Shown here: in pieces, positions 4,580-47,463 of the stretch
Layout of the letters: each line of letters begins with the position of its first letter
Position numbering within the stretch: position 1 is the first letter of the stretch
Virus record (IMG/VR): IMGVR_UViG_3300020152_000003
Coordinates: 1 to 56,975 of that record
DNA from: a virus
Length of the DNA stretch: 56,975 nucleotides
Strand: one strand, 5' to 3'
Position numbers and translations under genes: made by a program
Notes under the pieces: model-generated
What the model saw: the letters and a program-made list of their open reading frames with translations, nothing else
Told to the model about the DNA's origin: nothing
Database searches by the model: none

Positions 4580-6090
4580 GTCTCAGCCTGTTCCGGCTCG
4601 GGCCACAGGAACGCGCCGTTCAGCGCGGTCTTGCACGGCACCGCCCATTCCAGTTCGAACACGCCATCCCGCGCGATGCCGCAGCTGTCCCACTTCAGGA
4701 TCTGGCCGTACTGGCCGGTGGTGCCGAGCGAGCGCTGCCGCTTGTTGCCAAACGTCTTTCCGCGCGTGTTCGAAAACCGCATGGTGACAATCGGCGTGCC
4801 CTGATCCAGGAACGGGCCGAAGGCGGAGCTGAACCCGGACGCCCATGGGTTGGCCGTTGCCGCGCCGTCATCGTCGATCAGCATGTTGGGCACCTCGCCC
4901 ACGTCCATGTCGGCCATGAACCCGGGATAGGAGACCTCGTTGCCCTGCGCCCCGAGATGCGGGAACCCGCGGATGCAGACGATCGGGAATGTGTTGTCGG
5001 TGAACGTGTCCTGGTCGAGGGCGTAGAGATCGCCTCTCTTCCAGTCGATCATGACGTTGGTGTTGTACATATAGGCCGAGAGGAAGCCGTTCAGCCTGTG
5101 ATGGTTGCCGTTGACGTCAATGGATGAATACTGATTCCATTGGTCATTGCTGAGGTCATAGACCCAGCTCTTGTCGGCCGACGGGAAATCGATCTGGTAG
5201 AAGGTGTGGCCGATGATCTGGTAACAGTAGCCGACGGCGTCCGACCACTTGGTGTATTGCTGGATTTCGTTGTCGATGGCGAAGGTCGAGACCTTCTGCA
5301 CCGAGTAATCGGCTGATCCGCGCGCAATCCACGGCCTGCCGTCCTTGTCCTGGGTCAGCCAGAACAGGAATTTGTCGGTCTGGCCGATCGAATACGTCGC
5401 AGCCACGCCATGCTCAATGATGACGTTTGGCAGTTGCTGCCACGGGAAGTCGACATTGCCGGAATAGTACCAGACCTCGCCCTTCTTGGTGCCGAGCAGC
5501 CAGAGCTGGTCATTGAGTGCGGCTGCCGCCACCAGCGGGTCTGCGCTCGATGTCTTTTGGCCGAAGTCCAGAGCGTCCCACGTGATCGCGTTGGGGCCGG
5601 AAATGTAAAACTGGTTGGTCCCAGGCCTATTGAGGGCGAAAAATGTCCTGATGTAGTTGACCCAGTTCCCGCCGTAGAAAGCTGGATCGCTGATGGTGGA
5701 AAACGCCTTCGACTGGATGTCGATGGTGTATCCGGCTGTGGTGCCGTCGACCAACAGCACGGTTGTGCCATTGTCCGACATCGACACAATCGACGTCCCG
5801 GCCGCAATGGCGCCGATCGCCGTCAGGTTGAAACTCGGGTCGATGTAGTAGACGACCTGCCCGGCCACCATGTAGCCGTTGCCCTGACTGTCGCAGTAGA
5901 CACAGCGGCCGATGCCGAAAGTGGGGGCCTCGATGAGGCGGCGCAGCCCCGGCCGCGGGTACAGGGTGAACGGGACGGGCGGGTTGGCCTCCGGCGGGTT
6001 GGTCTCGCAATAGAGGTTGATCGAGCGCTGCGCGTTGGCGATGATCGATCGCGCCTGGTAGGCGCCGGACGTGAGGGCAATGCGGCTCAC
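4576..6090 (-). CDS. Packaged-DNA stabilisation / tail accessory factor, P22 gp10-like (504 aa)
   Basis: Size, position after the gp4-like gene and a beta-rich repetitive composition resembling the phage stabilisation protein family. GTG start with GTGA overlap. Confidence 0.55.
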   Translation of the reverse strand: MSRIALTSGAYQARSIIANAQRSINLYCETNPPEANPPVPFTLYPRPGLRRLIEAPTFGIGRCVYCDSQGNGYMVAGQVVYYIDPSFNLTAIGAIAAGTSIVSMSDNGTTVLLVDGTTAGYTIDIQSKAFSTISDPAFYGGNWVNYIRTFFALNRPGTNQFYISGPNAITWDALDFGQKTSSADPLVAAAALNDQLWLLGTKKGEVWYYSGNVDFPWQQLPNVIIEHGVAATYSIGQTDKFLFWLTQDKDGRPWIARGSADYSVQKVSTFAIDNEIQQYTKWSDAVGYCYQIIGHTFYQIDFPSADKSWVYDLSNDQWNQYSSIDVNGNHHRLNGFLSAYMYNTNVMIDWKRGDLYALDQDTFTDNTFPIVCIRGFPHLGAQGNEVSYPGFMADMDVGEVPNMLIDDDGAATANPWASGFSSAFGPFLDQGTPIVTMRFSNTRGKTFGNKRQRSLGTTGQYGQILKWDSCGIARDGVFELEWAVPCKTALNGAFLWPEPEQAET

Positions 6091-6692
6091 GCTGCCCTAC
6101 TCTTCGTATAGGCAGAGTTCTGAATGAAAAGCCGCTCTCCGGACCAGCCGGCGCCGACCCGATAGGCCATTGCCCGCCATGTGATGCCGGCAATCTTCGC
6201 GGCATCCTGCATGGTCATGCGCCCGCGGCATGTGTTGATGTAGACGTTTGATTTTTGATTGCGATTCTGCGCGGCCGGTGTTGCCCAGTGGCAATTCCCC
6301 AGCTCATAGTTTCCGTCGTTATCCTCGCGCTCAATGGTCAGGCCAGGCTGATATGTCGGCCCCATATCCGCATAGAAGTTCTCAAATCGGTGCCAGCGCT
6401 CGCAGACCTTGATGCCGCGACCACCATAGCGGTCATAGAATTTGAATTTTGGATTGTAGCAGCGCGACTTCATGCCATTCCAAACGGCGTAGATCGGCGA
6501 ATAGGACATGCCGTGCGCAACACGTGTGGCTCCCGGCCCTTTTTGGCATTTGCAGCTCAACCCGCGCGGCTTGCTTAAGCGATGCTCGGGGAATGAGCGC
6601 TCAACGCCACACTCGCACTTACCGACCCACCGTTTTGAATGGTGGTCATCCGCGCGAACTATGGTCCAGCAATTAAACCTGCGATCAATCAT
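6087..6692 (-). CDS. Degenerate HNH_3/AP2-type homing-endonuclease-like DNA-binding protein (201 aa), paralogue of 55364-56026
   Basis: Motifs YDRYGGRGIKVCERWHRFENFYADMG and EREDNDGNYELGNCHWATPAAQNRN, with a C-terminal HTH-like segment. 4-nt overlaps on both sides. Confidence 0.6.
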   Translation of the reverse strand: MIDRRFNCWTIVRADDHHSKRWVGKCECGVERSFPEHRLSKPRGLSCKCQKGPGATRVAHGMSYSPIYAVWNGMKSRCYNPKFKFYDRYGGRGIKVCERWHRFENFYADMGPTYQPGLTIEREDNDGNYELGNCHWATPAAQNRNQKSNVYINTCRGRMTMQDAAKIAGITWRAMAYRVGAGWSGERLFIQNSAYTKSRAA

Positions 6693-13032: not shown

Positions 13033-14382
13033 TTAGCCCATCCAGCTTTGGGGGGATGCGATCTCCGAGTGAGACGGAGGTGCAGCCGCAGGTTTCTTTG
13101 CCGGCCTCGACAGGACCGGGAACAATTCCGAGATGCCCCAGATCAGCGCGTCCGCGCGATCAGGCGACCGGTCGCCCGTGTAACCGGACGTCGTGAACGC
13201 GCAGAGCTGGTCTTCAAGCTTGGGGAATGTGCCGACATGGCAGACCTTCCCCGGTGAATTTTCGGAGCCGTACAGGACCGAGATCGGCTCGGCTCTCACG
13301 ACCTTGCCGCGGGAGGCCCGGACCAGTTTGAATGGTGTCTTTGGCCTTGCAACGCGAATGATCTCCTGGACCATCGCACCGCCGAAATTGATCTCGGCCA
13401 CGACACAATCGGCGCCCCACCTGTCGAAGGCGTTCGCCACGATCTTGCCCCAGCCGTTTTCGCCGCCTGGTCCATGACGCCCGGACAGGTCTTCAAGCAC
13501 GTAAGCCCGGCCATCGGTGCCAAGGCCGACGACGATAATACCGACCTCGTCGGATCGTTCGTCTTCCGGTCCAGAGCATCCCGATGGGTCCACAGCAATG
13601 ACAATGCGTTGCAGGTCGGGATAGATGCCGTCGAGCACGCGGCCCATGTCCAGCATCTCGAGCGTCCACAGCGCGCCATCGGCTGCGGTCCCGAATAGCC
13701 CCTTGAGAAACCTTCGCCTCAACCGCTCGGGGAGGTTTTCCAGCTCCTTGATGTATTCCGCCGGCAGGTTATCGGCGTTATCCACCGGGTTCATCACCAT
13801 GGCGGTGTAGTTGCCGGGCTCGCGAACTGGCGTCCGGGTATCAGGATCCAACTTGTCGACGAACAGCCGCTTGGTCCAATGGGCCTCTGACGGCGGGTTG
13901 CAGTCGTAATAGGCGCGCAGCCGAAGCTCGGTCTTCTGCGCCAGACGGGTCATGGCGATGTTGCGCGACGACCACGGGATTTGGGAACACTCATTCAGAA
14001 AGATCGTGGCATATTCCTGCCCCAGGATCTTCTCCGTCCGCTCCTTGTCGTCCAAGCCGCCGAACCAGATTTCGGACTGATTGGGCAGCTTGTAGAACCA
14101 GTCCGACTTGTCCATGTGGCTCTTGTCGGCCACCCCAGGGAAGCAAAGCTCCATCACCTTGGGCAGAGTGTCATAAATCACCGAGCCCTTGAGGTGGTTG
14201 AACCTGTACCTCAGGACCGCATGGCGGCTCTTGTAGGCCAACGCCCGGGTGATGAGCGCCCGGACGATGGTGAACGTCTTCCCCGACCTCGAGCCTCCGT
14301 AGAGCATCGTATGGGTGGCCGGAGAGCCGAGGAGCCTTGTTGCCTCAGCCTGCCGCTTGGTCAGCTCAAAGGAGCCCTGCAT
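13033..14382 (-). CDS. terL: Terminase large subunit (449 aa)
   Basis: Walker A LYGGSRSGKTF, Walker-B-like ATIFLNE, and a C-terminal RNaseH-type nuclease region (IVIAVDPSG...). Confidence 0.85.
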   Translation of the reverse strand: MQGSFELTKRQAEATRLLGSPATHTMLYGGSRSGKTFTIVRALITRALAYKSRHAVLRYRFNHLKGSVIYDTLPKVMELCFPGVADKSHMDKSDWFYKLPNQSEIWFGGLDDKERTEKILGQEYATIFLNECSQIPWSSRNIAMTRLAQKTELRLRAYYDCNPPSEAHWTKRLFVDKLDPDTRTPVREPGNYTAMVMNPVDNADNLPAEYIKELENLPERLRRRFLKGLFGTAADGALWTLEMLDMGRVLDGIYPDLQRIVIAVDPSGCSGPEDERSDEVGIIVVGLGTDGRAYVLEDLSGRHGPGGENGWGKIVANAFDRWGADCVVAEINFGGAMVQEIIRVARPKTPFKLVRASRGKVVRAEPISVLYGSENSPGKVCHVGTFPKLEDQLCAFTTSGYTGDRSPDRADALIWGISELFPVLSRPAKKPAAAPPSHSEIASPQSWMG

Positions 14383-15067: not shown

Positions 15068-15523
15068 TTACTTCGCGAACCAGGCCCCATCCTTCGCGCA
15101 GCCGAAGAAGTACGGCGTCGCGTCGGACAGGGAGCCCTTGGTGGTGGAGCCGTTGATGGTGTCCTGAGCGCCGGTGACCGGGTTGTTGGCCACGGTGGGA
15201 TAGGCGGTCAGGGTGGCGCCGCTCTTGTTGTAGACCCAGAGGGTGGTTCCAGCCTTGCAAGTCGGGAGGGCAAAGCCGCCGGTGCCGGACTCGATCATGA
15301 CCAGGGCCACAGCACCCGAAAGCTGGGTGGCAGTGGACTGTCCGGAGCCAGCTGCAGCCACGCCGGACTGATAGGTCCGGTTACGACCGCCAGAGAGGTC
15401 ATAGAGCCATCCCTGGTCGATCGTGGCATAACTGCCGCTCTGGAGCGGGCCAGTGGCCAGAGCGCCCGAGGCACAGCCCACGAGCGCAAGGATTGCGAGT
15501 GCAAGTTTGCGGGAGAGTTTCAT
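15068..15523 (-). CDS. Putative lipoprotein (151 aa), C-terminus ...DGAWFAK
   Basis: The start MKLSRKLALAILALVGCASG carries an LVGC lipobox, with an AAGGA RBS upstream. The tracked upstream extension was rejected. Confidence 0.6.
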   Translation of the reverse strand: MKLSRKLALAILALVGCASGALATGPLQSGSYATIDQGWLYDLSGGRNRTYQSGVAAAGSGQSTATQLSGAVALVMIESGTGGFALPTCKAGTTLWVYNKSGATLTAYPTVANNPVTGAQDTINGSTTKGSLSDATPYFFGCAKDGAWFAK

Positions 15524-15539: not shown

Positions 15540-16139
15540 TCACTGAAGCCTGAACCAGGCGTTGTTGGTCGAGTTGTACATGAACCGGTAGCCATAGGCG
15601 CCGGTGGTCGAGGTGGTGATGCCGGTCGGGTTGTTCTTGATCGTGACGCCGGCGGGCAGATTGGTTGCCGTCAGGGTCAGGGTGGTCACGTTGGCATCGG
15701 CCGAGACTGCGAACTGCTGGCCGTCCACGGGCGCCGTCGGGAAGTTGATGGTGACCGCGGTCATGACGGAGCCGCCGCCATTGTTGCGCAGGAGCACGCC
15801 ACCCGAGGTCGCCGCAGCCGTCACGGTCTGGGGATTGGTCGTGATGGTCGACACGGTGAGCGGGAGTGCGTTCAGGTTGGCCATGCTGAACAGCACGGTC
15901 TGCGGGCTCTGGCCGCTCGAAAGGTTGGTGTCGGCCGGGACTCGCTCGTTGCCGGTGACGGCCGTCGGGCCCGCCGGGACGTACTGAACGCAGGTCGTGC
16001 CGTCGCCCGCATACATGGAGCAGTAGGCCGCGCCTTCGACAACGGGGAGATTACTGAACATGCCGTTGGCGTTGGCCGCCGACAGAGACAGGAGAGAGGC
16101 GACGGCCGCAACGGCGGCGCCGCGAAGCGCTTTCAACAT
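15540..16139 (-). CDS. Exported beta-rich protein (199 aa), C-terminus ...NNAWFRLQ
   Basis: Sec-type signal peptide MLKALRGAAVAAVASLLSLSAANA/NG. Confidence 0.6.
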   Translation of the reverse strand: MLKALRGAAVAAVASLLSLSAANANGMFSNLPVVEGAAYCSMYAGDGTTCVQYVPAGPTAVTGNERVPADTNLSSGQSPQTVLFSMANLNALPLTVSTITTNPQTVTAAATSGGVLLRNNGGGSVMTAVTINFPTAPVDGQQFAVSADANVTTLTLTATNLPAGVTIKNNPTGITTSTTGAYGYRFMYNSTNNAWFRLQ

Positions 16140-16188: not shown

Positions 16189-16593
16189 TTATTCCGGAAC
16201 GGCGCCGGTCTTTACCTTAGCCATCGGGCCGCTGATGCGCGCCAGATAGTCGTACATTGGCGCGTGGGTCGGCTGGCGCCCCAGCGCGACCTCCATGCGC
16301 CTCATATTGAACAGCAGCGCCGGCGACGTCAGGTCACTCTCCAGCGCGTGATAGAGCTCGGCCAGAGCCGCCTCCTTCCATCCCCTATCGGGCTGGATGT
16401 CGGCCACCTTGGACAGATAGAGCGCAGAAGCCTGCCGGAAGTTACGATCACCAGGATACACATCCGCGGCCGACCGCTGGTACATCACCACCTCAGCTGG
16501 CGAGTCGGAGCCAAAGGCGAGAGAATACAGCACCTCGCCACAGACTGAGGCTGTCGCGAACGCCAAGCCGATAGCGATTAGAATGCCCCGCAA
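16189..16593 (-). CDS. TM-anchored helical-repeat domain: either a separate TTG-initiated ORF or the frameshifted C-terminus of the Wzy-like gene
   Basis: The frame is open 16791-16189. The sensible sequence begins LRGILIAIGLAFATASVCGEV... at TTG 16593. It overlaps the 3-prime end of 16493-17515 in the +1 frame. Confidence 0.4.
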   Translation of the reverse strand: MRGILIAIGLAFATASVCGEVLYSLAFGSDSPAEVVMYQRSAADVYPGDRNFRQASALYLSKVADIQPDRGWKEAALAELYHALESDLTSPALLFNMRRMEVALGRQPTHAPMYDYLARISGPMAKVKTGAVPE

Positions 16594-17515
16594 GGATGCC
16601 GCCAAGAACCGCCGTTGCGGCGAGGTGGAGCGGGAAGCCGAAGAAGGCTTCAATGGCGAGCACAGCGAGGATGGTAGACCGTGCGGACCATAGAAATGCC
16701 GAATATAGTACGGTTCCGACAATTCCGAGTTCAAAGGTAAACTCGAGCCAGTCATTGTGCAAATGCTCCGGACGTTGCAGCAACGTGTCAAAGGGCGAAT
16801 AGAGCGGGTACAGCGTGTAGAACGAGCCGATGCCCCTGCCCGCGAATGTCAATTGCGGGAGCACCGCGCCCCACATGTCCAAGCGCTGTTGCGCAGATTC
16901 GCTCGACCCCATCCATGCCGCAGTTGCGACACCGGCCAGAGCCAGAGCAATTGCGCACACCCTGGACCGTGGCCACAACCACATGATGAAAGCGCCGCCA
17001 AGCGCTAGGAACGCCCCGCGGCAGTGCGAGGCTATCAGCGCCGGCGCAATCAGCGGCACGGCCCACAGGATCCGATGCACCAAGGCGCCGACCAGCGCTA
17101 CGGCCGCAATCTCTCCCAGTGCGTTCGAATTGACGAACAGCCCGGCCGGGTAACCGCTGGTCTGCGGCACCGGGATGCCGAGCAGGATAATCGCGCTCGA
17201 TACCCCGAGCCCCAATGCCGCCCCCGCAACAATGGGACGGGTATCATCCATTTGCGAGCCGAGCACGAACGCCTCGGCCAGAACGATCAACTTGAGCATC
17301 GTGTCGATCGCTTCCCACTTGTGGGGCGCCCAGAGCACGGATGCCGCGGCATAGGCAACGAACAGCAAGCCGAACAGATGAGCAGCCGTGAACTCGATGC
17401 GCTCGCGCCGCAGCAGAAGCGGGAGCACGACGGCGGCCAATGCCCATCGCGGAGTGGTGGCCGCGCCGGTCCAGTCCGGCACGAACAGCGCCGTCAGCGC
17501 AAAGCCGAAAAGCAC
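16493..17515 (-). CDS. O-antigen polymerase/ligase-like polytopic membrane protein (Wzy_C family), possibly frameshifted near 16586-16589
   Basis: About 10 hydrophobic segments and the motif RPEHLHNDWLEFTFELGIVG, typical of Wzy_C. GTG start. The last roughly 30 codons (HSNRYRLGVRDSLSLWRGAVFSRLWLRLAS) look out of frame. Confidence 0.65.
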   Translation of the reverse strand: MLFGFALTALFVPDWTGAATTPRWALAAVVLPLLLRRERIEFTAAHLFGLLFVAYAAASVLWAPHKWEAIDTMLKLIVLAEAFVLGSQMDDTRPIVAGAALGLGVSSAIILLGIPVPQTSGYPAGLFVNSNALGEIAAVALVGALVHRILWAVPLIAPALIASHCRGAFLALGGAFIMWLWPRSRVCAIALALAGVATAAWMGSSESAQQRLDMWGAVLPQLTFAGRGIGSFYTLYPLYSPFDTLLQRPEHLHNDWLEFTFELGIVGTVLYSAFLWSARSTILAVLAIEAFFGFPLHLAATAVLGGILAGHSNRYRLGVRDSLSLWRGAVFSRLWLRLAS

Positions 17516-17703
17516 CGGTCTTCCATATAACGAGAGTAACCCTCAAGAAGTTTTACCACAGGCCCGTCGCTCTTTGGCTCGTAAGAGTCCAAAGCCACGT
17601 CATAAGCCTCTTTCGGCGTAAGAACTGCGCTATTCGGGCCAAATCTCAGAATGCTCGGGACCTCTTCCGAGATTATGATCTTGAGGCCACCCATCAACAT
17701 CAT
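17494..17703 (-). CDS. Hypothetical small protein (69 aa)
   Basis: ORF with an ATGA overlap to the upstream gene. Lower GC than its neighbours. Confidence 0.5.
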   Translation of the reverse strand: MMLMGGLKIIISEEVPSILRFGPNSAVLTPKEAYDVALDSYEPKSDGPVVKLLEGYSRYMEDRCFSALR

Positions 17704-17945
17704 TGGACGCCCTCATGAATGTCGTGGATCGGCAGTCCCGGGTCATCCATCACCTCGGCAGTGACCGAGTGGACGATATCGAGGTTGCCTTCCTTGTTGC
17801 GGTCGACGCGGTCCAGATAAACGGAGAGGCGCACCAGGCGCCCGTCGCTCAGCTTAGCCTCCGTCACCCCATGCTTCACCTTGACGATGCTGATGGGCTT
17901 TGGCCCCATCGAGATCATCAAAGGCTGGTCATAGGACCATTTCAT
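17700..17945 (-). CDS. Hypothetical small protein (81 aa)
   Basis: ORF with ATGA overlaps on both sides. Confidence 0.5.
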   Translation of the reverse strand: MKWSYDQPLMISMGPKPISIVKVKHGVTEAKLSDGRLVRLSVYLDRVDRNKEGNLDIVHSVTAEVMDDPGLPIHDIHEGVQ

Positions 17946-18115
17946 GCGGGATCACTTTGAGGGGCCGCATAGGGCGCGCTGCCATTCTTTTGGCAGCATG
18001 ACGGCAGGCTGTACCAAGCCGGAGGCGGCGGGTTCTTTTCGTCAAACTCCGTTTTCTGGCATTGGCGGCGCAGGATGCGGTTGATCACCTTGAAGTCGGT
18101 CACGGCTGATGTCAT
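17942..18115 (-). CDS. Hypothetical micro-protein (57 aa)
   Basis: Hand-translated as MTSAVTDFKVINRILRRQCQKTEFDEKNPPPPAWYSLPSCCQKNGSAPYAAPQSDPA. ATGA overlaps on both sides. Confidence 0.45.
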   Translation of the reverse strand: MTSAVTDFKVINRILRRQCQKTEFDEKNPPPPAWYSLPSCCQKNGSAPYAAPQSDPA

Positions 18116-18276
18116 GCCGGCTCCTTGTCGGGGTTCATCTCCGACGGCGCGGCGGCGAATATCTCGCGCTCGTGAGCGTTCGCCGGCGCCACCACCTGCG
18201 GCACCCTAAACGGGATTACCGGGAAGTCTTCAAGGTAGCGACGATTGCGCGGGATGAACTGGATCACGTCGCCCAT
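18112..18276 (-). CDS. Hypothetical micro-protein (54 aa)
   Basis: Hand-translated as MGDVIQFIPRNRRYLEDFPVIPFRVPQVVAPANAHEREIFAAAPSEMNPDKEPA. GGTGGGA RBS. Confidence 0.45.
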   Translation of the reverse strand: MGDVIQFIPRNRRYLEDFPVIPFRVPQVVAPANAHEREIFAAAPSEMNPDKEPA

Positions 18277-18371
18277 CAATCCCACCATTCGCTCGGGAGC
18301 AACGACAGCGCCACCAGACCGACGATGGCAAGAGCGATCAAACCTTGCGCGGAGGCAACCTGATCAGCCAC
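18276..18371 (-). CDS. Single-pass TM micro-peptide (31 aa)
   Basis: GTG start. Sequence (M)ADQVASAQGLIALAIVGLVALSLLPSEWWD. TGATG overlap downstream and 8-nt overlap upstream. Confidence 0.35.
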   Translation of the reverse strand: MADQVASAQGLIALAIVGLVALSLLPSEWWD

Positions 18372-18486
18372 GGCAACCTCTCGCTATCCATCCGGCCACA
18401 AAAGCGGCGATGACAATCACGCCGCAGACGATAATCTCTAGAGCCGCAACAATCTCAGGTAGAGGCGCCGCAGGGCCGAAGTTCAC
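18364..18486 (-). CDS. Single-pass TM micro-peptide (40 aa)
   Basis: GTG start in a GTGA overlap. Sequence (M)NFGPAAPLPEIVAALEIIVCGVIVIAAFVAGWIARGCRG. Confidence 0.35.
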   Translation of the reverse strand: MNFGPAAPLPEIVAALEIIVCGVIVIAAFVAGWIARGCRG

Positions 18487-18584
18487 AGTTCGCTCACAGC
18501 CCAGAGCTTACCGCCCTTGGAAATGATCTTGGCCTGCCCCTTCACGATCAGGGACGCGATTAGCTTCAAGGTCTCAGGGCTCAT
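18483..18584 (-). CDS. Micro-protein (33 aa), first ORF of the late-side operon
   Basis: Sequence MSPETLKLIASLIVKGQAKIISKGGKLWAVSEL. Strong GAGGAG RBS 8 nt upstream. Confidence 0.45.
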   Translation of the reverse strand: MSPETLKLIASLIVKGQAKIISKGGKLWAVSEL

Positions 18585-18607
18585 ATCGCGATCTCCTCGA
18601 ATGGTCT

Positions 18608-18694
18608 CGGGGCACTCGCCATGTCGGGTCTCGGGCCACGTAGATCGGGCCGCCATGGAGGTGATGCAGACGCCTGGTTAGGCTGAGTGCCCCG
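18608..18694 (-). promoter_or_regulatory. 10-bp perfect inverted repeat enclosing 67 nt in the leader of the micro-ORF/late operon
   Basis: Plus-strand CGGGGCACTC (18608-18617) and GAGTGCCCCG (18685-18694), about 25 nt upstream of the ATG at 18584. Confidence 0.4.
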
Positions 18695-18895
18695 ATTTAG
18701 GTTCTGACTGTTCGGGTTATGACGTTGCCCGCATTTGCTTCCCAATTGGCGGGATCGTACCGAACGGCGCTGGCTTCACCACCATAGGCCGGGGAAACTT
18801 TCGGCCGGCAGTCAGAATTGGAAGCCGCAGGGCCGCGTTGGCGGGTTCCGGCTGTCCGGTGCCGTTCGCACCGCCCTGTGAGGCATTCGCCCCGT

Positions 18896-25202: not shown

Positions 25203-25447
25203 GCCACCACCTCCCCGACGGCGACCGCCCTGGCCCATCTCGGGTCAGACGCCGACCTGGTCGACGTCTTGGTGCCGTTGTTCTTGTGTCGGTGCAGACC
25301 CATCGATGCGGCAAGGTTAGCGGCATACTTTGGTGACACGCCGAGGCCCACGCAGATCTCTTCAACGGCCTTCTGGCCACCAGCCAGATACAATTGAACA
25401 AGCGCGCTGCGCCGGTCCTCCGGAATCTTGAAGCAGCTCTTGTTCAT
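25199..25447 (-). CDS. Hypothetical protein (82 aa)
   Basis: ORF coupled on both sides by 4-nt overlaps. Confidence 0.5.
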   Translation of the reverse strand: MNKSCFKIPEDRRSALVQLYLAGGQKAVEEICVGLGVSPKYAANLAASMGLHRHKNNGTKTSTRSASDPRWARAVAVGEVVA

Positions 25448-25926
25448 CGCCTGCCCATCCTGTCGTCGTGGGCCTGATAGACGAACGCGCGATGGTGGTT
25501 GCAGTAGCTGCCGCGCTGGACGGTGTGGCCGCAGTAGAGTGGTTCGGCCGCATCCTCATTGGCGATAAAGCGGCAGTGGTGTGCTTCCAGCGCATCAAGC
25601 CCCACGATGCCGACGATCTGGAAATTCGCATCCACGGGCTCCGCAGCGCGATTAAGCGGCTTGCCAGCGCGGGCCTTGTTGCTGATGGCGACTTGCTTCA
25701 ACCGATAGCCTGGGGGGACCACAACAGCGCCCGCCTTTTTGAGCCGGTTGATCCTGCTGGATACGGCAGAGCGGTTCTTCCCCATCTCAGCCGCGATGGC
25801 GCCCCAGCTCTTCTCAGCTTCAATTGCCTGAATCAGCTCCCGGTCGCGCTCAGGCGTCCAAAAGGAGTTCTTGAGAGACCTGACGTGGACTGGTGGACTA
25901 AGGCCCACAGCAACTTGCTGCGTCAT
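25444..25926 (-). CDS. GcrA-like cell-cycle regulator homologue (160 aa)
   Basis: N-terminal WTPERDRELIQAIEAEKSWGAIAAEMGKNRSAVSSRINRLK and C-terminal HCRFI...YCGHTVQRGSYCNHHRAFVYQ, as in GcrA. Confidence 0.65.
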   Translation of the reverse strand: MTQQVAVGLSPPVHVRSLKNSFWTPERDRELIQAIEAEKSWGAIAAEMGKNRSAVSSRINRLKKAGAVVVPPGYRLKQVAISNKARAGKPLNRAAEPVDANFQIVGIVGLDALEAHHCRFIANEDAAEPLYCGHTVQRGSYCNHHRAFVYQAHDDRMGRR

Positions 25927-26165
25927 GATGCACGCTCCTTTGCTTTGCGGTTGTCCCAAATGCCTGACGCCTCATCGGCCCCGGAAAGAAACTGGCTATT
26001 GTCGTTGAATGGGCGGAAGCGGTCGACGAACCAGCAAGACCGGCCGGTCTCAACAAGGCGGAAGTAGTCGCCATCCTGATCGGAGATGATCTCGCAGACC
26101 TCGTAGACGGCGCCCTTGGCGAGCTTGCCGCCGGTCACGGTGGCGTCCTCGCAAACTACGAGCAT
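25923..26165 (-). CDS. Hypothetical protein (80 aa)
   Basis: ORF with an ATGA overlap downstream. Confidence 0.5.
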   Translation of the reverse strand: MLVVCEDATVTGGKLAKGAVYEVCEIISDQDGDYFRLVETGRSCWFVDRFRPFNDNSQFLSGADEASGIWDNRKAKERAS

Positions 26166-35701: not shown

Positions 35702-35887
35702 ATGAGCCGCACCCCCGCACGCATCACGCAAGCCGACGTCGCTCGAGCCATTCGAGCGGCGCAGCAATGTGGCGCGGGGCAGGTTCGCGTGCTCCCGGAC
35801 GGCTCCATTGCCATCGACCTGACCACTGGGAAGACCGTGGACAATCGGGCTCTCGAGGTTGAAGATGACGAGGAGGTCGTACTTTGA
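35702..35887 (+). CDS. Small protein upstream of int (61 aa), possible excisionase or directionality factor by position
   Basis: ORF overlapping the int start (TGATG). Confidence 0.45.
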   Translation: MSRTPARITQADVARAIRAAQQCGAGQVRVLPDGSIAIDLTTGKTVDNRALEVEDDEEVVL

Positions 35888-36963
35888 TGGACGACATGCC
35901 CCGTCCCCGCCCGCCGCATCTACATCGTGAGCACAACCGCCACGGCAAACCCGTCTGGTATGTCCGGAAGGGCAAGGGCGAGCGCATCAGGATCAAGCAC
36001 GAATACGGCACGCCAGAGTTCACCGAAGCCTATGAGGCGGCGATAGCCGGCCAGACCGTGAAGCCTGCTGAGAGGGCCGCCAAGGGCTCGCTCGAGTGGC
36101 TGTGGATGCTCTACCGGCAGACCAGCGCATGGACCGACCTTTCCATGGCGACCCGCCGCCAGCGCGAGAACATCATGCGCGGCGTCCTCAAGACCGGCGG
36201 CAACCAGCCTCTATCCAAGATCACCGGGAAGGTGATCAAGGCCGGCATCGATCGCCGCAAGGGGCACGCGGCCAGGCATTTCCTCGACACCATGAAGGGC
36301 CTCTACAAGTGGGCTCTCGAGGCCGAGCATGTGAAGCTGGACCCGACCGCTGGCAAAGCCGTAGCGAAGCCGAAAACCAAGGGCTTCCCGGTTTGGGAGG
36401 AGGAGGAGATCATCCAATTTGAGAAGCGCTGGCCTCGAGGCACGCGCGAGCGGGTGATGTTTGACATCTACTGCTACACCGGCCTGCGCCGTGGCGATGC
36501 GGCGGCACTCGGAAAGCAGCACATCAAGAACGGCGTGATCAGCATCGACACCGAGAAAACCGGAACCCGCGTCACCATTCCTGTGCTCGATGTATTGAGG
36601 CAGACGCTCGATGCTGGACCAACCGGGGATCTGGCGTTCATCGCTACTAAGAAAGGCGATCGGCTGACCAAGGAGAGCGTCGGGAATGCCTTCCGGGATG
36701 CCTGCCGCGCCGCCGGCATCAAGAAATCAGCCCATGGCCTGCGTAAGGCCGCGGCGACCAGGGCGGCGAACAACGGCGCCACGGAAGCTCAGCTCGAGGC
36801 GATCTTCGGCTGGGAGGGCGGGAAGATGGCCTCGCTCTACACCCGGACGGCCAACCGGCAGAAGCTGGCTACGGGCGCCATGAACACGCTCGAGAGAACC
36901 GAACCGGAAACTTCTATTCCCGCACCTCAGGGGCAGGTGCGGGCCTCAGGCCAAAAAGAGTAA
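35887..36963 (+). CDS. int: Tyrosine integrase (358 aa)
   Basis: Box I YTGLRRGD; HGLRKAAATRAAN (H-x-x-R); nucleophile in MASLYTRTA. Confidence 0.85.
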   Translation: MDDMPRPRPPHLHREHNRHGKPVWYVRKGKGERIRIKHEYGTPEFTEAYEAAIAGQTVKPAERAAKGSLEWLWMLYRQTSAWTDLSMATRRQRENIMRGVLKTGGNQPLSKITGKVIKAGIDRRKGHAARHFLDTMKGLYKWALEAEHVKLDPTAGKAVAKPKTKGFPVWEEEEIIQFEKRWPRGTRERVMFDIYCYTGLRRGDAAALGKQHIKNGVISIDTEKTGTRVTIPVLDVLRQTLDAGPTGDLAFIATKKGDRLTKESVGNAFRDACRAAGIKKSAHGLRKAAATRAANNGATEAQLEAIFGWEGGKMASLYTRTANRQKLATGAMNTLERTEPETSIPAPQGQVRASGQKE

Positions 36964-37052: not shown

Positions 37053-37604
37053 ATGGACGACATTGAAGCCAAAAAGGAATTTTCAGAGGCGCCCGCACCT
37101 AGCGGGCATCCGGGCTGGGTCTACTTTGTGCGCGCCGGCAGGGCGATCAAGATCGGATACAGCATCGGGGTTCCCAGCCGACTTTCGACTCTTCAGACGG
37201 GCCATTACCAGGAGCTCGAGCTGCTCGTGCAGGTCCCTGGATCACTGCGCGACGAGCGCCGATACCACTTCCTCTTCCGGGCCTTCAAAATCAGGCGCGA
37301 GTGGTTCCGCTCTTGCGACCCGATCTTGGCTGAAGTCGAGCACCTGAAGCGCTACGGGAAACCATCCAAGAAGCCGATCGACGCATTCAAGCCCGAACCG
37401 AAGCCTGAGCGTAGCCCGCTTCTCTATTCGTTGGACTGCAAGTCGCGTCGTGCGCCGAACAAGACTGAACGGATGAAGATCGAACTGCGGATGGCGATGA
37501 TCCGTGACGGCACCGCCGCCGCCTTCGCGGCTCGGCAAGATGCTCTGTTGGGGGTAAAGCCGCGTATTCGGGTGCAGGCGATTACGAGCGAACGCCACAC
37601 CTGA
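37053..37604 (+). CDS. T5orf172 / GIY-YIG-superfamily domain protein (183 aa)
   Basis: GWVYFVRAGRAIKIGYSIGVPSRLSTLQTGHYQELELL...ERRYHFLFRAFKIRREWF. Confidence 0.65.
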   Translation: MDDIEAKKEFSEAPAPSGHPGWVYFVRAGRAIKIGYSIGVPSRLSTLQTGHYQELELLVQVPGSLRDERRYHFLFRAFKIRREWFRSCDPILAEVEHLKRYGKPSKKPIDAFKPEPKPERSPLLYSLDCKSRRAPNKTERMKIELRMAMIRDGTAAAFAARQDALLGVKPRIRVQAITSERHT

Positions 37605-40683: not shown

Positions 40684-40938
40684 GTGAAACAGGCGATAAT
40701 GCTAACTGACATGAAAACAGGCCAGCTTTATCCGGCTGGCGATTGGCCCCCTGGGAGTATCGATTCAGCTATGAGCACTCAAGAAAAGCTGGCCCTGATC
40801 CAGCACCACGCGCGCATGATAGCGTCGCTTGAAGCCAACGGCTTGCCAGATCGCAAGCAGCTGACTGATAGCGCGATCCGTATTGTCGAACTGCTGAATT
40901 CGATCCCGAAGGGGCAGCTGTCGGAGCACGACTCCTAA
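40684..40938 (+). CDS. Hypothetical protein (84 aa; the tracked ORF begins at 40609)
   Basis: GTG 40684 lies 7 nt after AAGGAG. Confidence 0.45.
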   Translation: MKQAIMLTDMKTGQLYPAGDWPPGSIDSAMSTQEKLALIQHHARMIASLEANGLPDRKQLTDSAIRIVELLNSIPKGQLSEHDS

Positions 40939-41090
40939 TGCACTGGATATACCTAGCCGGGTTGACGGCGGCGGTTATGATCACTGTCGGATTAGGCGTG
41001 CACCTCGGGGAGCGCTTGATAGATAGGATGCTTGGCGCGTCTCAAGAGAGCAACAAGCCGGTCGTCAAGCCACCTCCCCGGTCTCCCTGA
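40938..41090 (+). CDS. TM micro-protein (50 aa)
   Basis: MHWIYLAGLTAAVMITVGLGVHLGERLIDRM... TAATG overlap. Confidence 0.4.
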   Translation: MHWIYLAGLTAAVMITVGLGVHLGERLIDRMLGASQESNKPVVKPPPRSP

Positions 41091-41153: not shown

Positions 41154-42194
41154 ATGTTTCAGCCGCGCAATATTATTGGCGCCGAGACGGCGACAAAACC
41201 GTATTACCCCGCGTTCGATTTCCTGAGAGCCGGCGCTGCGCTTGGCGTATTCCTGAGTCATGCTCAATTTCGCGATCTGCTCCCGCACGAATTCGGCAAC
41301 GCCTGCGTCCAAGTGTTCTTCGCGCTGAGCGGTTTCCTGATCGGTGGGATTCTTCTAGAAACCCGCCCGAAGGACCTGCCGAAGTTCTACTTCAACCGCA
41401 CTATGCGGATCTGGATCCCGTACTGGGTCGCGTTCACGATCATCTTTGCCCTCACCGCCGCAAAGCAAGGACTAGGTGACTCGAAGTTTTTCGAGTTCTT
41501 CTTTTACGATTTGACCTTCGTCTACAATTGGTTCGGACCGCCTCAGCTTGCCGAATTCCGGCACCGGATGCCTCTTGAGGGGACTGGTAATCACTTCTGG
41601 TCGATTTGCGTAGAGGAACAGTTCTATCTTTTAGCTCCGCTCTTTTTGATTTTCCTACCGCGCGTCGCGGCTGCTGTTGGCTTGCTCGCGCTGGTCGCTG
41701 TTAACTTCTGGCAACCCCACCACTTCGCCGCAATCTCTCTTGGTGTCATCGTTGCGCTCGCGGGTGAACGACGGTTAGTGGCTGGAGTTATGATGGCGTG
41801 CGCCGGATTGGTGGGCGCCCTCTTCTTCAGCTACGAGCAGTGGATGCCGTTCCTGTCCGCAGCAATCGTAGCGGCGTGCTCATGGCGAGGGCCGCAGTTG
41901 CCAGGAGGCGCGCTCTTAGGTGGCGCATCCTACGCGTTTTACCTGAATGGCTGGATAGGGTTGTTCATCGCCTCATCTCTTGAGCGCCGGATGGGCCTTC
42001 CCTCAACGGTCGGTTTTATGCTGGCGATTTCCGTGAGCTCGTTGATTGCCCTATCCCACTATCAGTTCATCGATCGCGAGATCATGAAACGACGCGGTCG
42101 ATATTTTTCTGATCGAGTCGGCTTGGTGTGTTGTGCCGCAGGCTTTTTGCTCGTGGCCTCCGGAGTCATGGGAGGCGTTTACTTCTTTAGATAG
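41154..42194 (+). CDS. Acyltransferase family 3 membrane protein (O-antigen/polysaccharide O-acetylase-like, 346 aa)
   Basis: FDFLRAGAALGVFLSH, VQVFFALSGFLIG and HFWSICVEEQFYLLAPL, with about 10 TM segments. Confidence 0.8.
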   Translation: MFQPRNIIGAETATKPYYPAFDFLRAGAALGVFLSHAQFRDLLPHEFGNACVQVFFALSGFLIGGILLETRPKDLPKFYFNRTMRIWIPYWVAFTIIFALTAAKQGLGDSKFFEFFFYDLTFVYNWFGPPQLAEFRHRMPLEGTGNHFWSICVEEQFYLLAPLFLIFLPRVAAAVGLLALVAVNFWQPHHFAAISLGVIVALAGERRLVAGVMMACAGLVGALFFSYEQWMPFLSAAIVAACSWRGPQLPGGALLGGASYAFYLNGWIGLFIASSLERRMGLPSTVGFMLAISVSSLIALSHYQFIDREIMKRRGRYFSDRVGLVCCAAGFLLVASGVMGGVYFFR

Positions 42195-42198
42195 ATCA

Positions 42199-44703: not shown

Positions 44704-45644
44704 CAAAACGGTCCCCAGAACGAGAGTTGGTTGGAATTCAGGGCCGATCGCACGCTGGTGTTGTCCGCTGACCATACCCCGGACTCATTCCATTGATACG
44801 TTGGGCCAGCACCGCCCCCGCTGATATTTATCTGGGCGCCCCCAATGGCTCCCGTCCCAGGATTAATTGTCGTGCTGGTGCCGCCATTCGAACAGCTCGC
44901 TCCGACTGATCCGCCGCAAAAGAACGTACTACTTGCGCCGTTTAATACCACATTGAACGCATGCCACGATCCGTCGGTGACGTTACCGATGCTGGCACCC
45001 GCGCCGGAAAATACGCGGGCCGTGTTGGCCGACGAACTAAAGCCAAACTGCGCGGTCGAAGAGATGAAACTTACAGTTTGCCCGCCGACAACGCTCCGAG
45101 ACCCTACATACGACACTGAGTATATCTGGTTGACGGCGGTGAAGTTTCCTGTGGCTGCGAACATCGTCTGGGTAGACGTAAAAACAAGGCATGGCAACGA
45201 ATTGATGCAATTCCACGTCAGGGTCGGCCGATTTGAGTTTGTCCCCTGCGTAAGATTGCAGGCCGCTCCAGTGCAATTAAGCGCCCCGCTTTGGTCGTAG
45301 AGCGTCGCCACCCTGCAAGTGTTGCTGGTCGTGCAGTCGTTTGAGCCAAGCGTTCCTGGACTGTTGAGGCGCCCGGTCGTTGCGTTTGTCAGGATGTCTG
45401 TGCAATTGGCGCCGGTATCGTCGCAGAGGTTGATGGCTCGCGTGCCGGCTGTGGCAGCGCTCATCGCCCGCAGGCCCCACCAGACCTTGGGTGAAGCCGC
45501 GATGTCTGCGGGGCCGACGTAGGTCGCGGCCGCCCCCGCGCTCCCCGCCCCCAGCAGCGTCATAGACCCCGCCCACGCCTTCACAGGCGCCAGCGCAATC
45601 CAGACCGCCAGGAACAGGCTGGCGGTTCTTTGAAAGAAGCGCAT
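44703..45644 (-). CDS. Exported Cys-rich beta-sandwich (LamG/ConA-like?) protein (313 aa)
   Basis: Signal peptide MRFFQRTASLFLAVWIALAPVKAWA/G. ATLYDQSG...RPT motif. ATG 45644 lies 6 nt after GAGGTG. Confidence 0.5.
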   Translation of the reverse strand: MRFFQRTASLFLAVWIALAPVKAWAGSMTLLGAGSAGAAATYVGPADIAASPKVWWGLRAMSAATAGTRAINLCDDTGANCTDILTNATTGRLNSPGTLGSNDCTTSNTCRVATLYDQSGALNCTGAACNLTQGTNSNRPTLTWNCINSLPCLVFTSTQTMFAATGNFTAVNQIYSVSYVGSRSVVGGQTVSFISSTAQFGFSSSANTARVFSGAGASIGNVTDGSWHAFNVVLNGASSTFFCGGSVGASCSNGGTSTTINPGTGAIGGAQINISGGGAGPTYQWNESGVWSADNTSVRSALNSNQLSFWGPF

Positions 45645-47462: not shown

Positions 47463-47463
47463 G

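What the first reader, a model, noticed from the sequence alone, without database searches (positions are those of the whole stretch)
16189..18584. Candidate phage-D3-style O-antigen conversion set: TM micro-peptides plus a Wzy-like polymerase, with an O-acetylase elsewhere
Seven small ORFs (33, 40, 31, 54, 57, 81 and 69 aa) are chained by overlapping stop/start codons (GTGA, ATGA, TGATG) and lead directly into a Wzy_C-type polytopic membrane protein (HLHNDWLEFTFELGIVG). Two of the peptides (40 and 31 aa) are essentially single transmembrane helices. Serotype conversion by Pseudomonas phage D3 uses three parts: a hydrophobic peptide of about 30 residues that inhibits the host polymerase (Iap), a phage Wzy-beta polymerase, and an O-acetylase. 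This genome also carries an acyltransferase-3 gene at 41154-42194. The placement is unusual, because the module lies inside the late-side operon between the putative late regulator and the terminase genes rather than near att or the tail fibre. The micro-ORFs are below the 60-aa cutoff of the supplied track and would be missed by routine annotation.
Basis: partly seen in the sequence, partly recalled or inferred. Interest (0 to 1): 0.75.

Follow-up and report, generated by a model that had tools for sequence, protein, structure and literature searches.

The report
Phage-borne surface-sugar transferase cassette
A temperate phage of a Bradyrhizobium-like soil bacterium carries, inside its late operon, a real membrane enzyme of the O-antigen ligase/polymerase superfamily that probably rewires the host's surface sugars, but the proposed three-part system modelled on phage D3 is only partly borne out.

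Summary
Seven stop/start-coupled small ORFs on the minus strand lead into a 340-aa ORF that passes Pfam Wzy_C (41.5 bits, cut-off 31.7). That ORF models onto the WaaL ligase 7TPG and keeps the Arg/Arg/His triad. The 40- and 31-aa ORFs are single TM helices under purifying selection.

The D3-style reading is only partly supported.
- The enzyme is not related to D3 Wzy-beta beyond the superfamily motif (BLASTP E=1.1, hhalign 2%).
- The AT3 gene is 24 kb away, lacks D3's SGNH domain, and forms a separate cassette with a signal-peptide protein.
- The TM peptides recur only within one sub-lineage. One Wzy_C-positive relative lacks them, and a Wzy_C-negative relative carries a different small membrane protein.
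- Three of the seven ORFs have no homologue in four close relatives.

The Wzy_C gene plus an overlapping, out-of-frame, TM-anchored 138-aa ORF form an accessory cassette, absent from syntenic relatives. It sits next to a gene for an exported protein resembling a tail-fibre tip. Wzy_C genes lie beside signal-peptide genes in at least 24 of 37 loci.

Most likely this is receptor or surface-glycan conversion with an unresolved acceptor. A protein O-glycosylase role is not excluded. It is a new variant of a known kind.

The parts
16493..17515 (-). Wzy_C-superfamily polytopic membrane glycan transferase, 340 aa, GTG start. Candidate catalytic triad R166/R211/H253.
   Evidence: Pfam PF04932: 41.5 bits against gathering score 31.7. 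Profile hit to WaaL 7TPG aligning R166/R211/H253 with R191/R265/H313. AlphaFold2 model pLDDT 83, pTM 0.84. Foldseek 7TPG E=1e-4, TMq 0.59. R211 and H253 invariant and R166 near-invariant in 70 diverse members. pN/pS 0.27.
16189..16605 (-). Out-of-frame ORF overlapping the 3' end of the Wzy_C gene. It encodes a protein of about 138 aa with an N-terminal TM helix (TTG start inferred; gene callers usually give the 98-aa ATG form). It is co-inherited with Wzy_C as a cassette. No family match.
   Evidence: tblastn hits that include the overlapped TM segment in L001, L002, L004, L005, L076, L078, L082, L087, L100, L131-L133. pN/pS about 0.3. Frame comparison in the overlap is ambiguous. One source calls a 138-aa form at 75% identity, P0134, and the window's own protein is called at 98 aa, P0135. 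No Pfam or PDB match.
18364..18486 (-). o40: 40-aa single-TM micro-protein, GTG start.
   Evidence: Kyte-Doolittle 19-residue maximum 2.94. Conserved in L001 (82%), L131 and L133. pN/pS 0.23-0.50.
18276..18371 (-). o31: 31-aa single-TM micro-protein with an acidic/aromatic tail (SEWWD), GTG start.
   Evidence: Kyte-Doolittle maximum 2.18. Against L001: 10 synonymous and 0 non-synonymous changes.
18112..18276 (-). o54: conserved small soluble protein (MGDVIQF... motif).
   Evidence: pN/pS 0.09-0.19 in three relatives. Recognisable in L002, L004 and L098 by eye.
17700..17945 (-). o81: conserved 81-aa soluble protein, a core gene of this phage group. It is also present where Wzy_C is absent.
   Evidence: tblastn hits in L001, L002, L004, L098, L105, L131, L133. 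pN/pS 0.19-0.31.
18483..18584 (-). o33: 33-aa ORF in a variable slot. Coding status not shown.
   Evidence: GC3 0.82 and a GAGGAG site upstream. No homologue in four close relatives. A T5orf172 endonuclease gene sits in this region of L001, between DUF6362 and the TM micro-ORFs.
17942..18115 (-). o57b: 57-aa ORF in a variable slot. Relatives hold unrelated ORFs of 57-66 aa at this position.
   Evidence: AAGGAG site upstream.
17494..17703 (-). o69: 69-aa ORF, an insertion specific to this genome between o81 and Wzy_C.
   Evidence: Absent from L001, L131 and L133, where Wzy_C starts 4 nt after o81. Local GC dip to 0.53. GC3 0.59.
15540..16139 (-). sec199: exported protein with a Sec-type signal peptide and two invariant Cys. 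Its C-terminal beta domain resembles the tips of tail fibres and depolymerases (C1q-like). It is the most frequent neighbour of the Wzy_C gene.
   Evidence: Alignment of 30 homologues. Model pLDDT about 90 for residues 90-199. BFVD hits to a Klebsiella phage EPS-depolymerase C-terminus (E=4e-8), a C1q-domain protein and tail fibres. Lies beside Wzy_C, on either side, in 18 loci besides the window, and 1.5 kb away in a 19th, L123.
15068..15523 (-). lipo151: predicted lipoprotein (lipobox LVGC), possibly related to the sec199 beta domain (by eye only).
   Evidence: Sequence. Conserved in L001 at 96% and L132 at 91%.
41154..42194 (+). AT3-only acyltransferase. It belongs to a separate cassette, not to the Wzy_C module.
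   Evidence: PF01757 E=3.6e-16, no SGNH domain. Convergent pairing with a signal-peptide protein is conserved in L134.

Best explanation
The 340-aa ORF is a functional enzyme of the Wzy_C (WaaL/Wzy/PglL-fold) superfamily. Such enzymes take an undecaprenyl-pyrophosphate-linked glycan on the periplasmic face of the inner membrane and transfer it to an acceptor. Together with an overlapping, TM-anchored 138-aa partner it forms a two-gene accessory cassette. The cassette has been inserted into the late operon of a temperate, P22-like phage of an alphaproteobacterial host, probably Bradyrhizobium-like. It lies directly next to a gene for an exported, glycan-binding protein that resembles a fibre tip.

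I infer that the most likely job is conversion of the host's surface polysaccharide (O-antigen or EPS/CPS). The enzyme would re-link or re-attach repeat units so that the infected or lysogenic cell no longer displays the glycan that the phage's own receptor-binding proteins recognise. That would exclude superinfection and spare progeny from adsorbing to debris. The same logic links wzy genes to tailspike or depolymerase genes in D3, epsilon15 and Acinetobacter prophages.

The two TM micro-proteins are real genes at the head of the same operon. An Iap-like inhibitory role is possible but not indicated by the comparative data. The AT3 acyltransferase is an independent second cassette.

Shown: family membership, fold, conserved triad, cassette behaviour, gene linkage, purifying selection. 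Inferred: the donor, the acceptor, the biological purpose and the timing of expression.
For: Enzyme identity:
- Pfam Wzy_C above the gathering score.
- Profile and fold match to WaaL 7TPG only.
- R166/R211/H253 align with the WaaL triad and are invariant or near-invariant in 70 diverse members.
- The family is large: 1085 cluster representatives at E<=1e-30.

Cassette behaviour:
- Syntenic phages L098 and L105 go straight from o81 to sec199 without the Wzy_C gene or the 138-aa ORF.
- The pair is present in L001, L002, L004, L005, L076, L078, L082, L100 and L131-L133.
- Relatives also occur in other phage backbones (L003, L006).

Linkage to exported, fibre-like proteins:
- sec199 is adjacent on either side.
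- Genes with signal peptides lie within two genes of Wzy_C in 24 of 37 loci by a strict heuristic, 29% of neighbours against 11% background, Fisher P=1.4e-5.
- sec199 resembles the tips of depolymerases and tail fibres.

Precedents for phage-borne Wzy_C enzymes that change O-antigen or CPS linkage and sit near tail-fibre or depolymerase genes:
- D3: orf27 tail fibre, iap, oac, wzy-beta.
- VarioGold (PMC9658991).
- A. baumannii Wzy2Ph of the Wzy_C family (PMC13228068).

Host: a GcrA-like gene, a Bradyrhizobium-binned relative, and a putative peptidoglycan-binding protein 58% identical to one of a Bradyrhizobium phage.
Against: - The gene is translationally coupled inside a late operon, with no promoter-like or terminator-like site of its own on the coding strand. 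Expression in a lysogen, the classic requirement for seroconversion, is not indicated.
- No close homologue was found in 185,579 GTDB species-representative genomes. Lysogens carrying it have therefore not been seen.
- Neither sequence nor structure discriminates polymerase from ligase from protein O-glycosylase.
- The host, and so its glycan pathway, is unknown.
- Adjacency to signal-peptide protein genes is equally what a dedicated O-oligosaccharyltransferase and its substrate would show.
- The loci compared are phylogenetically related, so the enrichment statistic overstates independence.
Confidence: 0.5

Rival explanations
1. D3-style three-component serotype conversion. One or both TM micro-peptides (o40, o31) inhibit the host's own polymerase, the phage Wzy_C enzyme polymerises O-units with a new linkage, and the AT3 enzyme O-acetylates the product.
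For: - o40 and o31 are conserved, selected single-TM peptides of Iap size, with aromatic or acidic tails like Iap.
- Unrelated pairs of TM micro-ORFs of about 30 aa recur upstream of Wzy_C in L004, L005 (overlapping the Wzy_C start), L076, L078, L100 and L095.
- AT3 is present in the same genome.
- A. baumannii work also postulates an unidentified phage inhibitor of the host Wzy (PMC13228068).
Against: - No specific similarity to D3 Wzy-beta.
- L002 has Wzy_C but no TM micro-ORF.
- Most other Wzy_C loci have none within 2.5 kb upstream.
- L098 lacks Wzy_C yet has a small membrane protein in the same slot.
- The peptides are separated from Wzy_C by 3-4 genes.
- AT3 is an independent cassette without SGNH, and its relatives were not found on Wzy_C-bearing contigs.
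- Co-occurrence within one sub-lineage is confounded by shared ancestry.
Confidence: 0.15
2. The enzyme is a phage-encoded protein O-oligosaccharyltransferase (PilO/TfpO/PglL-like). It transfers host Und-PP-linked glycans onto phage-encoded exported proteins such as sec199, lipo151 or the larger fibre-like proteins that carry signal peptides.
For: - Dedicated O-OTases of this superfamily are typically encoded next to, and co-oriented with, their exported substrate (21 of 31 pglL genes, PMC3643930).
- Here the Wzy_C gene abuts a signal-peptide gene in both gene orders and across phage backbones.
- It is co-transcribed late with those genes.
- Some sec199 orthologues from Wzy_C-positive contigs carry Gly/Ser/Thr-rich low-complexity loops.
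- The genome is unusually rich in signal-peptide proteins.
Against: - None of 70 family members match PglL_A or Wzy_C_2, although PilO also lacks those motifs.
- sec199 occurs without Wzy_C in about half of related phages.
- About a third of Wzy_C loci show no signal-peptide neighbour.
- No sequon or glycosylated residue can be identified.
- No phage O-OTase was found in the literature searched.
Confidence: 0.2
3. The small TM proteins and their neighbours form the lysis cassette (holin/antiholin, spanins), which is what normally occupies this position in P22- and lambda-like phages.
For: - The position between the replication/regulator genes and the terminase is the canonical lysis slot.
- The region holds small TM proteins, a signal-anchored protein and a lipoprotein.
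- No endolysin, holin or spanin family was recognised anywhere in the window by Pfam or PHROGs.
Against: - There is no muralytic domain in the region.
- sec199 is a beta-rich fibre-tip-like fold, not a coiled-coil spanin or a lysozyme.
- Peptides of 31-40 aa are smaller than known holins (own knowledge).
- A better lysis candidate exists elsewhere. The 240-aa ORF at 49845-50567 is 58% identical to a Bradyrhizobium phage 'peptidoglycan-binding protein'. It lies next to a 125-aa ORF at 49120-49497 whose sequence, by eye, has hydrophobic stretches.
Confidence: 0.07

Closest known systems
Pseudomonas phage D3 serotype-conversion locus (iap, oac, wzy-beta; Newton et al. 2001, as annotated in AF165214)
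   Same: A temperate phage carrying a polytopic enzyme with the Wzy_C motif, hydrophobic peptides of about 31 aa, and an AT3 acyltransferase. The genes are linked to tail-fibre-like genes.
   Different: - No specific sequence relationship (E=1.1; hhalign 2%). D3 Wzy-beta itself scores below the Pfam threshold (21.9 bits).
- The D3 genes form one compact, partly divergent locus beside the tail fibre and attP. Here the enzyme is coupled inside the late operon.
- Here the AT3 is 24 kb away and lacks SGNH.
- The peptides are not consistently linked to the enzyme.
WaaL O-antigen ligase (Cupriavidus metallidurans, PDB 7TPG)
   Same: It is the only solved structure matched by profile (E=3.6e-4) and by fold (E=1e-4, TMq 0.59). 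The Arg191/Arg265/His313 triad is conserved as R166/R211/H253.
   Different: The phage protein is shorter (340 aa against 413 aa), shares 17% identity and is not in an LPS-core locus. The acceptor, lipid A-core, is not implied.
Prophage-encoded Wzy polymerases of Acinetobacter baumannii (Wzy2Ph, Wzy_C family; PMC13228068) and VarioGold VG_p25 (PMC9658991)
   Same: Phage-borne Wzy_C proteins of about 350-410 aa that change, or are proposed to change, the linkage between repeat units. They lie near depolymerase or tail genes and next to small TM or signal-peptide ORFs.
   Different: - Those genes sit in moron-like positions, oppositely oriented or near the integrase.
- tblastn of the window protein found no match in the 50,697 INPHARED phage records at E<=1e-3.
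PilO/TfpO/PglL protein O-oligosaccharyltransferases
   Same: They belong to the same superfamily and share the triad. Their genes are adjacent to and co-oriented with a gene for an exported substrate.
   Different: The PglL_A motif is absent. The neighbours are not pilins. No glycosylation evidence exists.

Membership tests
Pfam Wzy_C (PF04932) / WaaL-Wzy-PglL superfamily | Profile score above the curated gathering threshold | tested here: met
   41.5 bits against 31.7, E=1.5e-10. 68 of 70 family members also match.
Pfam Wzy_C (PF04932) / WaaL-Wzy-PglL superfamily | Polytopic inner-membrane protein with a WaaL-like fold | tested here: met
   AlphaFold2 model of all-helical bundle, pLDDT 83, pTM 0.84. 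Foldseek top and only significant hit is 7TPG, E=1e-4, TMq 0.59.
Pfam Wzy_C (PF04932) / WaaL-Wzy-PglL superfamily | Conserved Arg/Arg/His triad (E. coli WaaL R215/R288/H338; PglL R224/R298/H349) | tested here: met
   R166/R211/H253 align with 7TPG R191/R265/H313. R211 and H253 are invariant and R166 is at least 90% conserved in 70 sequences. Residue roles are taken from PMC3643930.
D3-type three-component serotype conversion | Polymerase related to D3 Wzy-beta | tested here: not met
   BLASTP E=1.1. hhalign probability 2%, with only the motif aligned.
D3-type three-component serotype conversion | Short hydrophobic inhibitor peptide genetically linked to the polymerase | tested here: inconclusive
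   Two selected TM peptides lie 0.8-1 kb upstream. Analogous pairs occur in 5-6 diverged loci, but none in L002 or in most other Wzy_C loci. L098 has a different small membrane protein without Wzy_C.
D3-type three-component serotype conversion | O-acetylase (AT3-SGNH) in the same locus | tested here: not met
   AT3-only, 24 kb away, in its own conserved convergent pair with a signal-peptide protein.
D3-type three-component serotype conversion | Change of O-antigen linkage, chain length or acetylation on lysogeny | not testable with these tools
   Needs LPS gels or NMR of lysogen against non-lysogen. The host is unknown.
PglL-type O-oligosaccharyltransferase | PglL_A (PF15864) / Wzy_C_2 motifs flanking Wzy_C | tested here: not met
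   No hit at E<=0.1 for the window protein. 0 of 70 family members hit at E<=0.01.
PglL/PilO/TfpO-type O-oligosaccharyltransferase | Gene adjacent to and co-oriented with a gene for an exported substrate protein | tested here: inconclusive
   Adjacency to signal-peptide genes is enriched, 24 of 37 loci, P=1.4e-5. Whether these proteins are substrates is unknown.
WaaL O-antigen ligase proper | Encoded in the LPS core/O-antigen locus and ligates to lipid A-core | tested here: not met
   Encoded in a phage late operon. Close homologues are absent from GTDB representative genomes. The activity itself is not testable here.
Holin / lysis cassette (for the TM micro-ORFs) | Adjacent muralytic enzyme and spanin genes | tested here: not met
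   No lysozyme, amidase or transglycosylase family in 14.7-18.9 kb. A peptidoglycan-binding-protein homologue lies at 49845-50567 instead.

The most novel reading that the evidence does not exclude
The Wzy_C enzyme is a phage-encoded protein O-glycosylase. The phage exports fibre-tip-like proteins (sec199, lipo151 and the 858-aa fibre-like protein, all with Sec signal peptides) into the periplasm, where they acquire disulfides and host-derived glycans. These proteins would then act at the cell surface, or join or assist virions only after lysis. That would be a periplasmic maturation route for phage receptor-binding or decoy proteins, which has not been described.
Probability: 0.15. Interest if true: 0.85.

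Novelty: new variant of a known kind. Interest (0 to 1): 0.45.

Why it matters
- Phage-borne Wzy_C enzymes are known to rewrite O-antigen and capsule structures. This changes serotype, phage host range, and vaccine or therapy targets.
- This locus defines a large, unannotated and so far mostly metagenomic family: more than 1000 clusters at 50% identity, none in the curated phage collection searched.
- The family has an unusual set-up. The gene is coupled into the late operon, overlaps a TM-anchored partner gene, and is linked to exported fibre-tip-like proteins.
- If it converts the surface glycan of rhizobia-like hosts, it bears on symbiosis-relevant LPS/EPS and on phage-host matching in soil.
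- If it instead glycosylates phage-exported proteins, it would be a new kind of phage biology.
- It also shows that an Iap-like reading of small TM ORFs needs co-occurrence controls before it is accepted.

Tried and rejected
- **C-terminal fusion or programmed frameshift joining Wzy_C to the downstream ORF.** Rejected. The longer homologues (P0017, P0026 and others) are longer because of insertions or N-terminal extensions, not an in-frame C-terminal domain.
- **'TPR' label for the 138-aa partner.** This came only from reading the sequence. Pfam and PDB sequence searches give nothing, so the label is dropped.
- **Cellular relatives as Wzy_C-TPR fusions.** The remote homologues in Bryobacterales and Verrucomicrobia are mostly plain proteins of about 400 aa.
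- **Finding prophage copies and a host in GTDB genomes.** Only remote, motif-level matches turned up.
- **tblastn against INPHARED phages.** No match for Wzy_C or sec199.
- **NCBIfam and PHROGs.** No family for Wzy_C, the partner or sec199.
- **sec199 as a SAR or secreted endolysin or a spanin.** Rejected. The fold is a beta fibre-tip-like domain.
- **AT3 co-occurrence with Wzy_C contigs.** The single-protein scan found only one unrelated contig, so this was a weak test.
- **Which frame is selected in the Wzy_C/partner overlap.** Ambiguous.
- **Rfam scan of the window.** Nothing found.
- **tRNA scan for attP.** None found.
- **The two 858-aa ORFs as paralogues.** They are unrelated.

Full report
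**What the window is**

The 56,975-bp window (61% GC) looks like a whole, circularly permuted genome of a temperate podophage with P22-type head genes.
- On the minus strand, in order, run primase (23398-21953), DnaB (21501-20155) and a DUF6362/phrog_6836 protein (19579-18896).
- The region of the finding follows.
- After it come TerS, TerL (14382-13033), a P22-type portal (13026-10891), scaffold, major capsid protein, head-closure protein and ejection proteins.
- The plus strand carries RecT/exonuclease genes and a tyrosine integrase at 35884-36963.
- A GcrA-like regulator at 25444-25959 points to an alphaproteobacterial host.
- A relative binned with a Bradyrhizobium MAG points to a Bradyrhizobium-like host. 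So does a protein 58% identical to one of Bradyrhizobium phage ppBjS10J-1.
- No tRNA and no Rfam family is present.

**Check of the observation**

All seven small ORFs and the 340-aa ORF exist on the minus strand with the stated overlaps: GTGA, an 8-nt overlap, TGATG, three ATGA junctions and a 22-nt overlap.
- o40 and o31 each consist essentially of one hydrophobic helix (Kyte-Doolittle 2.94 and 2.18). The other five small ORFs are not hydrophobic.
- The 340-aa ORF passes Pfam Wzy_C, 41.5 bits against a cut-off of 31.7.
- The ORF at 41154-42194 is an Acyl_transf_3 protein.

Four of the small ORFs are real by comparative criteria against three relatives at about 80% identity:
- o31 shows 10 synonymous and 0 non-synonymous changes.
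- o40 has pN/pS 0.23-0.50, o54 0.09-0.19 and o81 0.19-0.31.

The other three (o33, o57b, o69) have no homologue in those relatives.
- Their positions hold unrelated ORFs, or a T5orf172 endonuclease gene nearby, in the relatives.
- o69 lies in a GC dip.

**The enzyme**

- A profile of 17 homologues matches only one solved structure, the WaaL O-antigen ligase 7TPG (E=3.6e-4). The alignment places R166, R211 and H253 on WaaL R191, R265 and H313.
- These correspond to the Arg/Arg/His residues that are essential in E. coli WaaL and conserved in PglL (PMC3643930).
- An AlphaFold2 model (pLDDT 83, pTM 0.84) finds 7TPG as its only significant fold match (E=1e-4, TMq 0.59).
- An exhaustive HMMER search shows a large family: 6558 representatives at E<=1e-3 and 1085 at E<=1e-30, with the best 150 nearly all full-length at about 330-490 aa.
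- In 70 diverse members, R211 and H253 are invariant and R166 is near-invariant.
- 68 of the 70 match Wzy_C. None matches PglL_A, Wzy_C_2 or any extra domain.
- The protein is not specifically related to D3 Wzy-beta (BLASTP E=1.1; hhalign probability 2%). D3 Wzy-beta itself scores below the Pfam cut-off at 21.9 bits.
- No match exists in 50,697 deposited phage genomes or, closely, in 185,579 GTDB representative genomes.

Superfamily membership is therefore firm. The sub-type (polymerase, ligase or protein O-glycosylase) cannot be read from sequence or fold.

**What travels with it**

1. *An overlapping partner gene.* A second ORF in another frame overlaps the last ~110 nt of the Wzy_C gene.
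   - From a TTG at 16605 it would encode a 138-aa protein with an N-terminal TM helix.
   - tblastn recovers it, including the overlapped TM part, wherever the gene order is Wzy_C then sec199. In L002 an ATG precedes the TM segment.
   - Its pN/pS is about 0.3. The frame test within the overlap is ambiguous.
   - It has no family or PDB match.
2. *The pair behaves as a cassette.*
   - The syntenic phages L098 and L105 have DUF6362, o54-like and o81 genes, then go directly to sec199 with no Wzy_C gene.
   - Relatives of the enzyme also occur in other backbones, for example a Pa193/E217-like phage (L003) and next to ejection or tail genes (L006).
3. *The exported neighbour sec199 (16139-15540).*
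   - It carries a canonical Sec signal peptide, variable in sequence but constant in form across 30 homologues.
   - It has two invariant cysteines and a conserved motif VPAGPxxxTGNExIPADT.
   - Its confidently modelled C-terminal beta domain resembles the distal domains of phage depolymerases, C1q-like proteins and tail fibres (BFVD best E=4e-8; PDB best a phage capsid spike, E=1.5e-3).
   - sec199 homologues lie 2-4 kb upstream of P22-type portals in many phages.
   - In 18 loci besides the window the Wzy_C gene lies beside it, either as Wzy_C, partner, sec199 or as sec199, Wzy_C. In one further locus (L123) it is 1.5 kb away. In about 24 loci it is absent.
4. *Signal-peptide neighbours in general.* Wzy_C genes lie within two genes of a signal-peptide protein gene in at least 24 of 37 loci by a deliberately strict heuristic. 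That is 29% of neighbours against 11% of other genes, Fisher P=1.4e-5. The loci are not phylogenetically independent.

**The TM micro-peptides**

They are real, and superficially Iap-like. D3 Iap is VHLKFSIIVIKAVGITAFMALVLIATYYQDI.
- Unrelated pairs of TM micro-ORFs of about 30 aa precede Wzy_C in L004, L005, L076, L078, L100 and L095.
- They are missing from L002, which has Wzy_C at 55% identity.
- They are missing from the loci with the order sec199 then Wzy_C, and from most loci that lack sec199.
- L098 has a DUF3309 membrane protein in the same slot without any Wzy_C gene.
- Within the one sub-lineage where they co-occur, shared gene order confounds the association.

An inhibitor role is neither supported nor excluded.

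**The acyltransferase**

- It is AT3-only, whereas D3 Oac is AT3-SGNH.
- It lies 24 kb away and is convergent with an 858-aa ORF (42199-44775) that has a signal peptide.
- In L134 the same convergent pair recurs at 50% identity in a different phage backbone.
- It is therefore a separate cassette.
- A 50-aa TM ORF sits 64 bp upstream of it in the window but not in L134.

**Alternative: a lysis cassette**

The region occupies the canonical lysis slot, and no lysis family was recognised anywhere in the window.
- sec199 is not muralytic or spanin-like by fold.
- A better candidate exists at 49845-50567, a homologue of a Bradyrhizobium phage 'peptidoglycan-binding protein'. It lies beside a 125-aa ORF at 49120-49497 whose sequence, by eye, has hydrophobic stretches.

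**Conclusion**

- The best-supported reading (confidence about 0.5) is an accessory Wzy_C-superfamily Und-PP-glycan transferase cassette. It would remodel the host's surface polysaccharide in step with the phage's glycan-recognising proteins.
- This matches the logic known from D3 (tail fibre orf27 next to iap/oac/wzy-beta), VarioGold and Acinetobacter prophages.
- It differs from those cases in four ways: a distinct family, coupling into the late operon, an overlapping TM partner, and linkage to exported fibre-tip-like proteins.
- The D3-style three-part scheme is a minority possibility (about 0.15).
- A protein O-glycosylase acting on the exported neighbours (about 0.2) is the most interesting reading not excluded.
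- Donor, acceptor, timing and host all remain to be shown experimentally.

Noticed in passing
window 16493-16605 (overlap) and 16189-16605: A conserved ORF in a different frame overlaps the last ~110 nt of the Wzy_C gene and would add an N-terminal TM helix to the downstream protein. Most gene callers start it at the later ATG (98 aa), so the TM anchor is missed.
   Followed up: partly
window 15540-16139 (-): sec199 combines a Sec signal peptide and two invariant Cys with a domain that resembles a tail-fibre or depolymerase tip (C1q-like). Homologues lie 2-4 kb upstream of P22-type portals in dozens of uncultured phages. Its function is unknown.
   Followed up: partly
window 42199-56095 (-): The genome holds an unusual number of ORFs that begin with canonical signal peptides. 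Among them is the fibre-like 858-aa ORF 51158-53734 (MRKLALALILAPLCGAFFMGAPAFAQ, then a motif that looks by eye like a tail-fibre N-terminus, KAELTAEVSTTFPDNTSG). It is start-coupled (ATGA) to the upstream tail-fibre gene. The others are 42199-44775, 44703-45722, 45655-47004, 48516-48875 and 55544-56095. Exported fibre-like proteins in a phage are unexplained.
   Followed up: partly
window 41154-44775; L134 4350-8059: The AT3 acyltransferase is convergent with a signal-peptide protein of 858-903 aa (motif EWGNEIWN / YEGPNEAWN, reminiscent of clan GH-A hydrolases by eye only). The pair recurs in an unrelated phage backbone, so it looks like a mobile two-gene cassette.
   Followed up: partly
window 40938-41090 (+): A 50-aa ORF with an N-terminal TM helix lies 64 bp upstream of the AT3 gene. 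By position it is as good an Iap-like candidate as o40 or o31, but it is not conserved in L134.
   Followed up: partly
window 49120-50567 (-): Candidate lysis genes lie away from the canonical slot. The 240-aa ORF is 58% identical to a 'peptidoglycan-binding protein' of Bradyrhizobium phage ppBjS10J-1. The adjacent 125-aa ORF has hydrophobic stretches by eye. Neither matches a Pfam or PHROG lysis family.
   Followed up: partly
window 25444-25959 (-): A GcrA-like cell-cycle regulator homologue (PF07750, E=7e-10) is encoded by the phage. This suggests an alphaproteobacterial host and possible manipulation of the host cell cycle.
   Followed up: no
window 6087-6692 (-), 37053-37604 (+); L001 4434-4916: Homing-endonuclease-like genes are scattered through the genome: an HNH gene between head-closure and adaptor genes, and a T5orf172/MUG113 gene after the integrase. 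L001 has a T5orf172 gene between DUF6362 and the TM micro-ORFs, roughly where the window has its 310-bp intergenic region and o33.
   Followed up: no
window 13033-14382 vs L001: The packaging module is mosaic. The portal is 96% identical to that of L001, but TerL is only 44% identical, and L001 uses a Terminase_2-type TerS. L002 and L098 share the window's TerL at 80%.
   Followed up: no
window 18585-18895: The 310-bp intergenic region between the DUF6362 gene and the first small ORF folds somewhat better than shuffled controls (z = -2.3). It may hold the late promoter or a regulatory RNA. No sigma-70-like promoter was found in 14-20.5 kb.
   Followed up: partly
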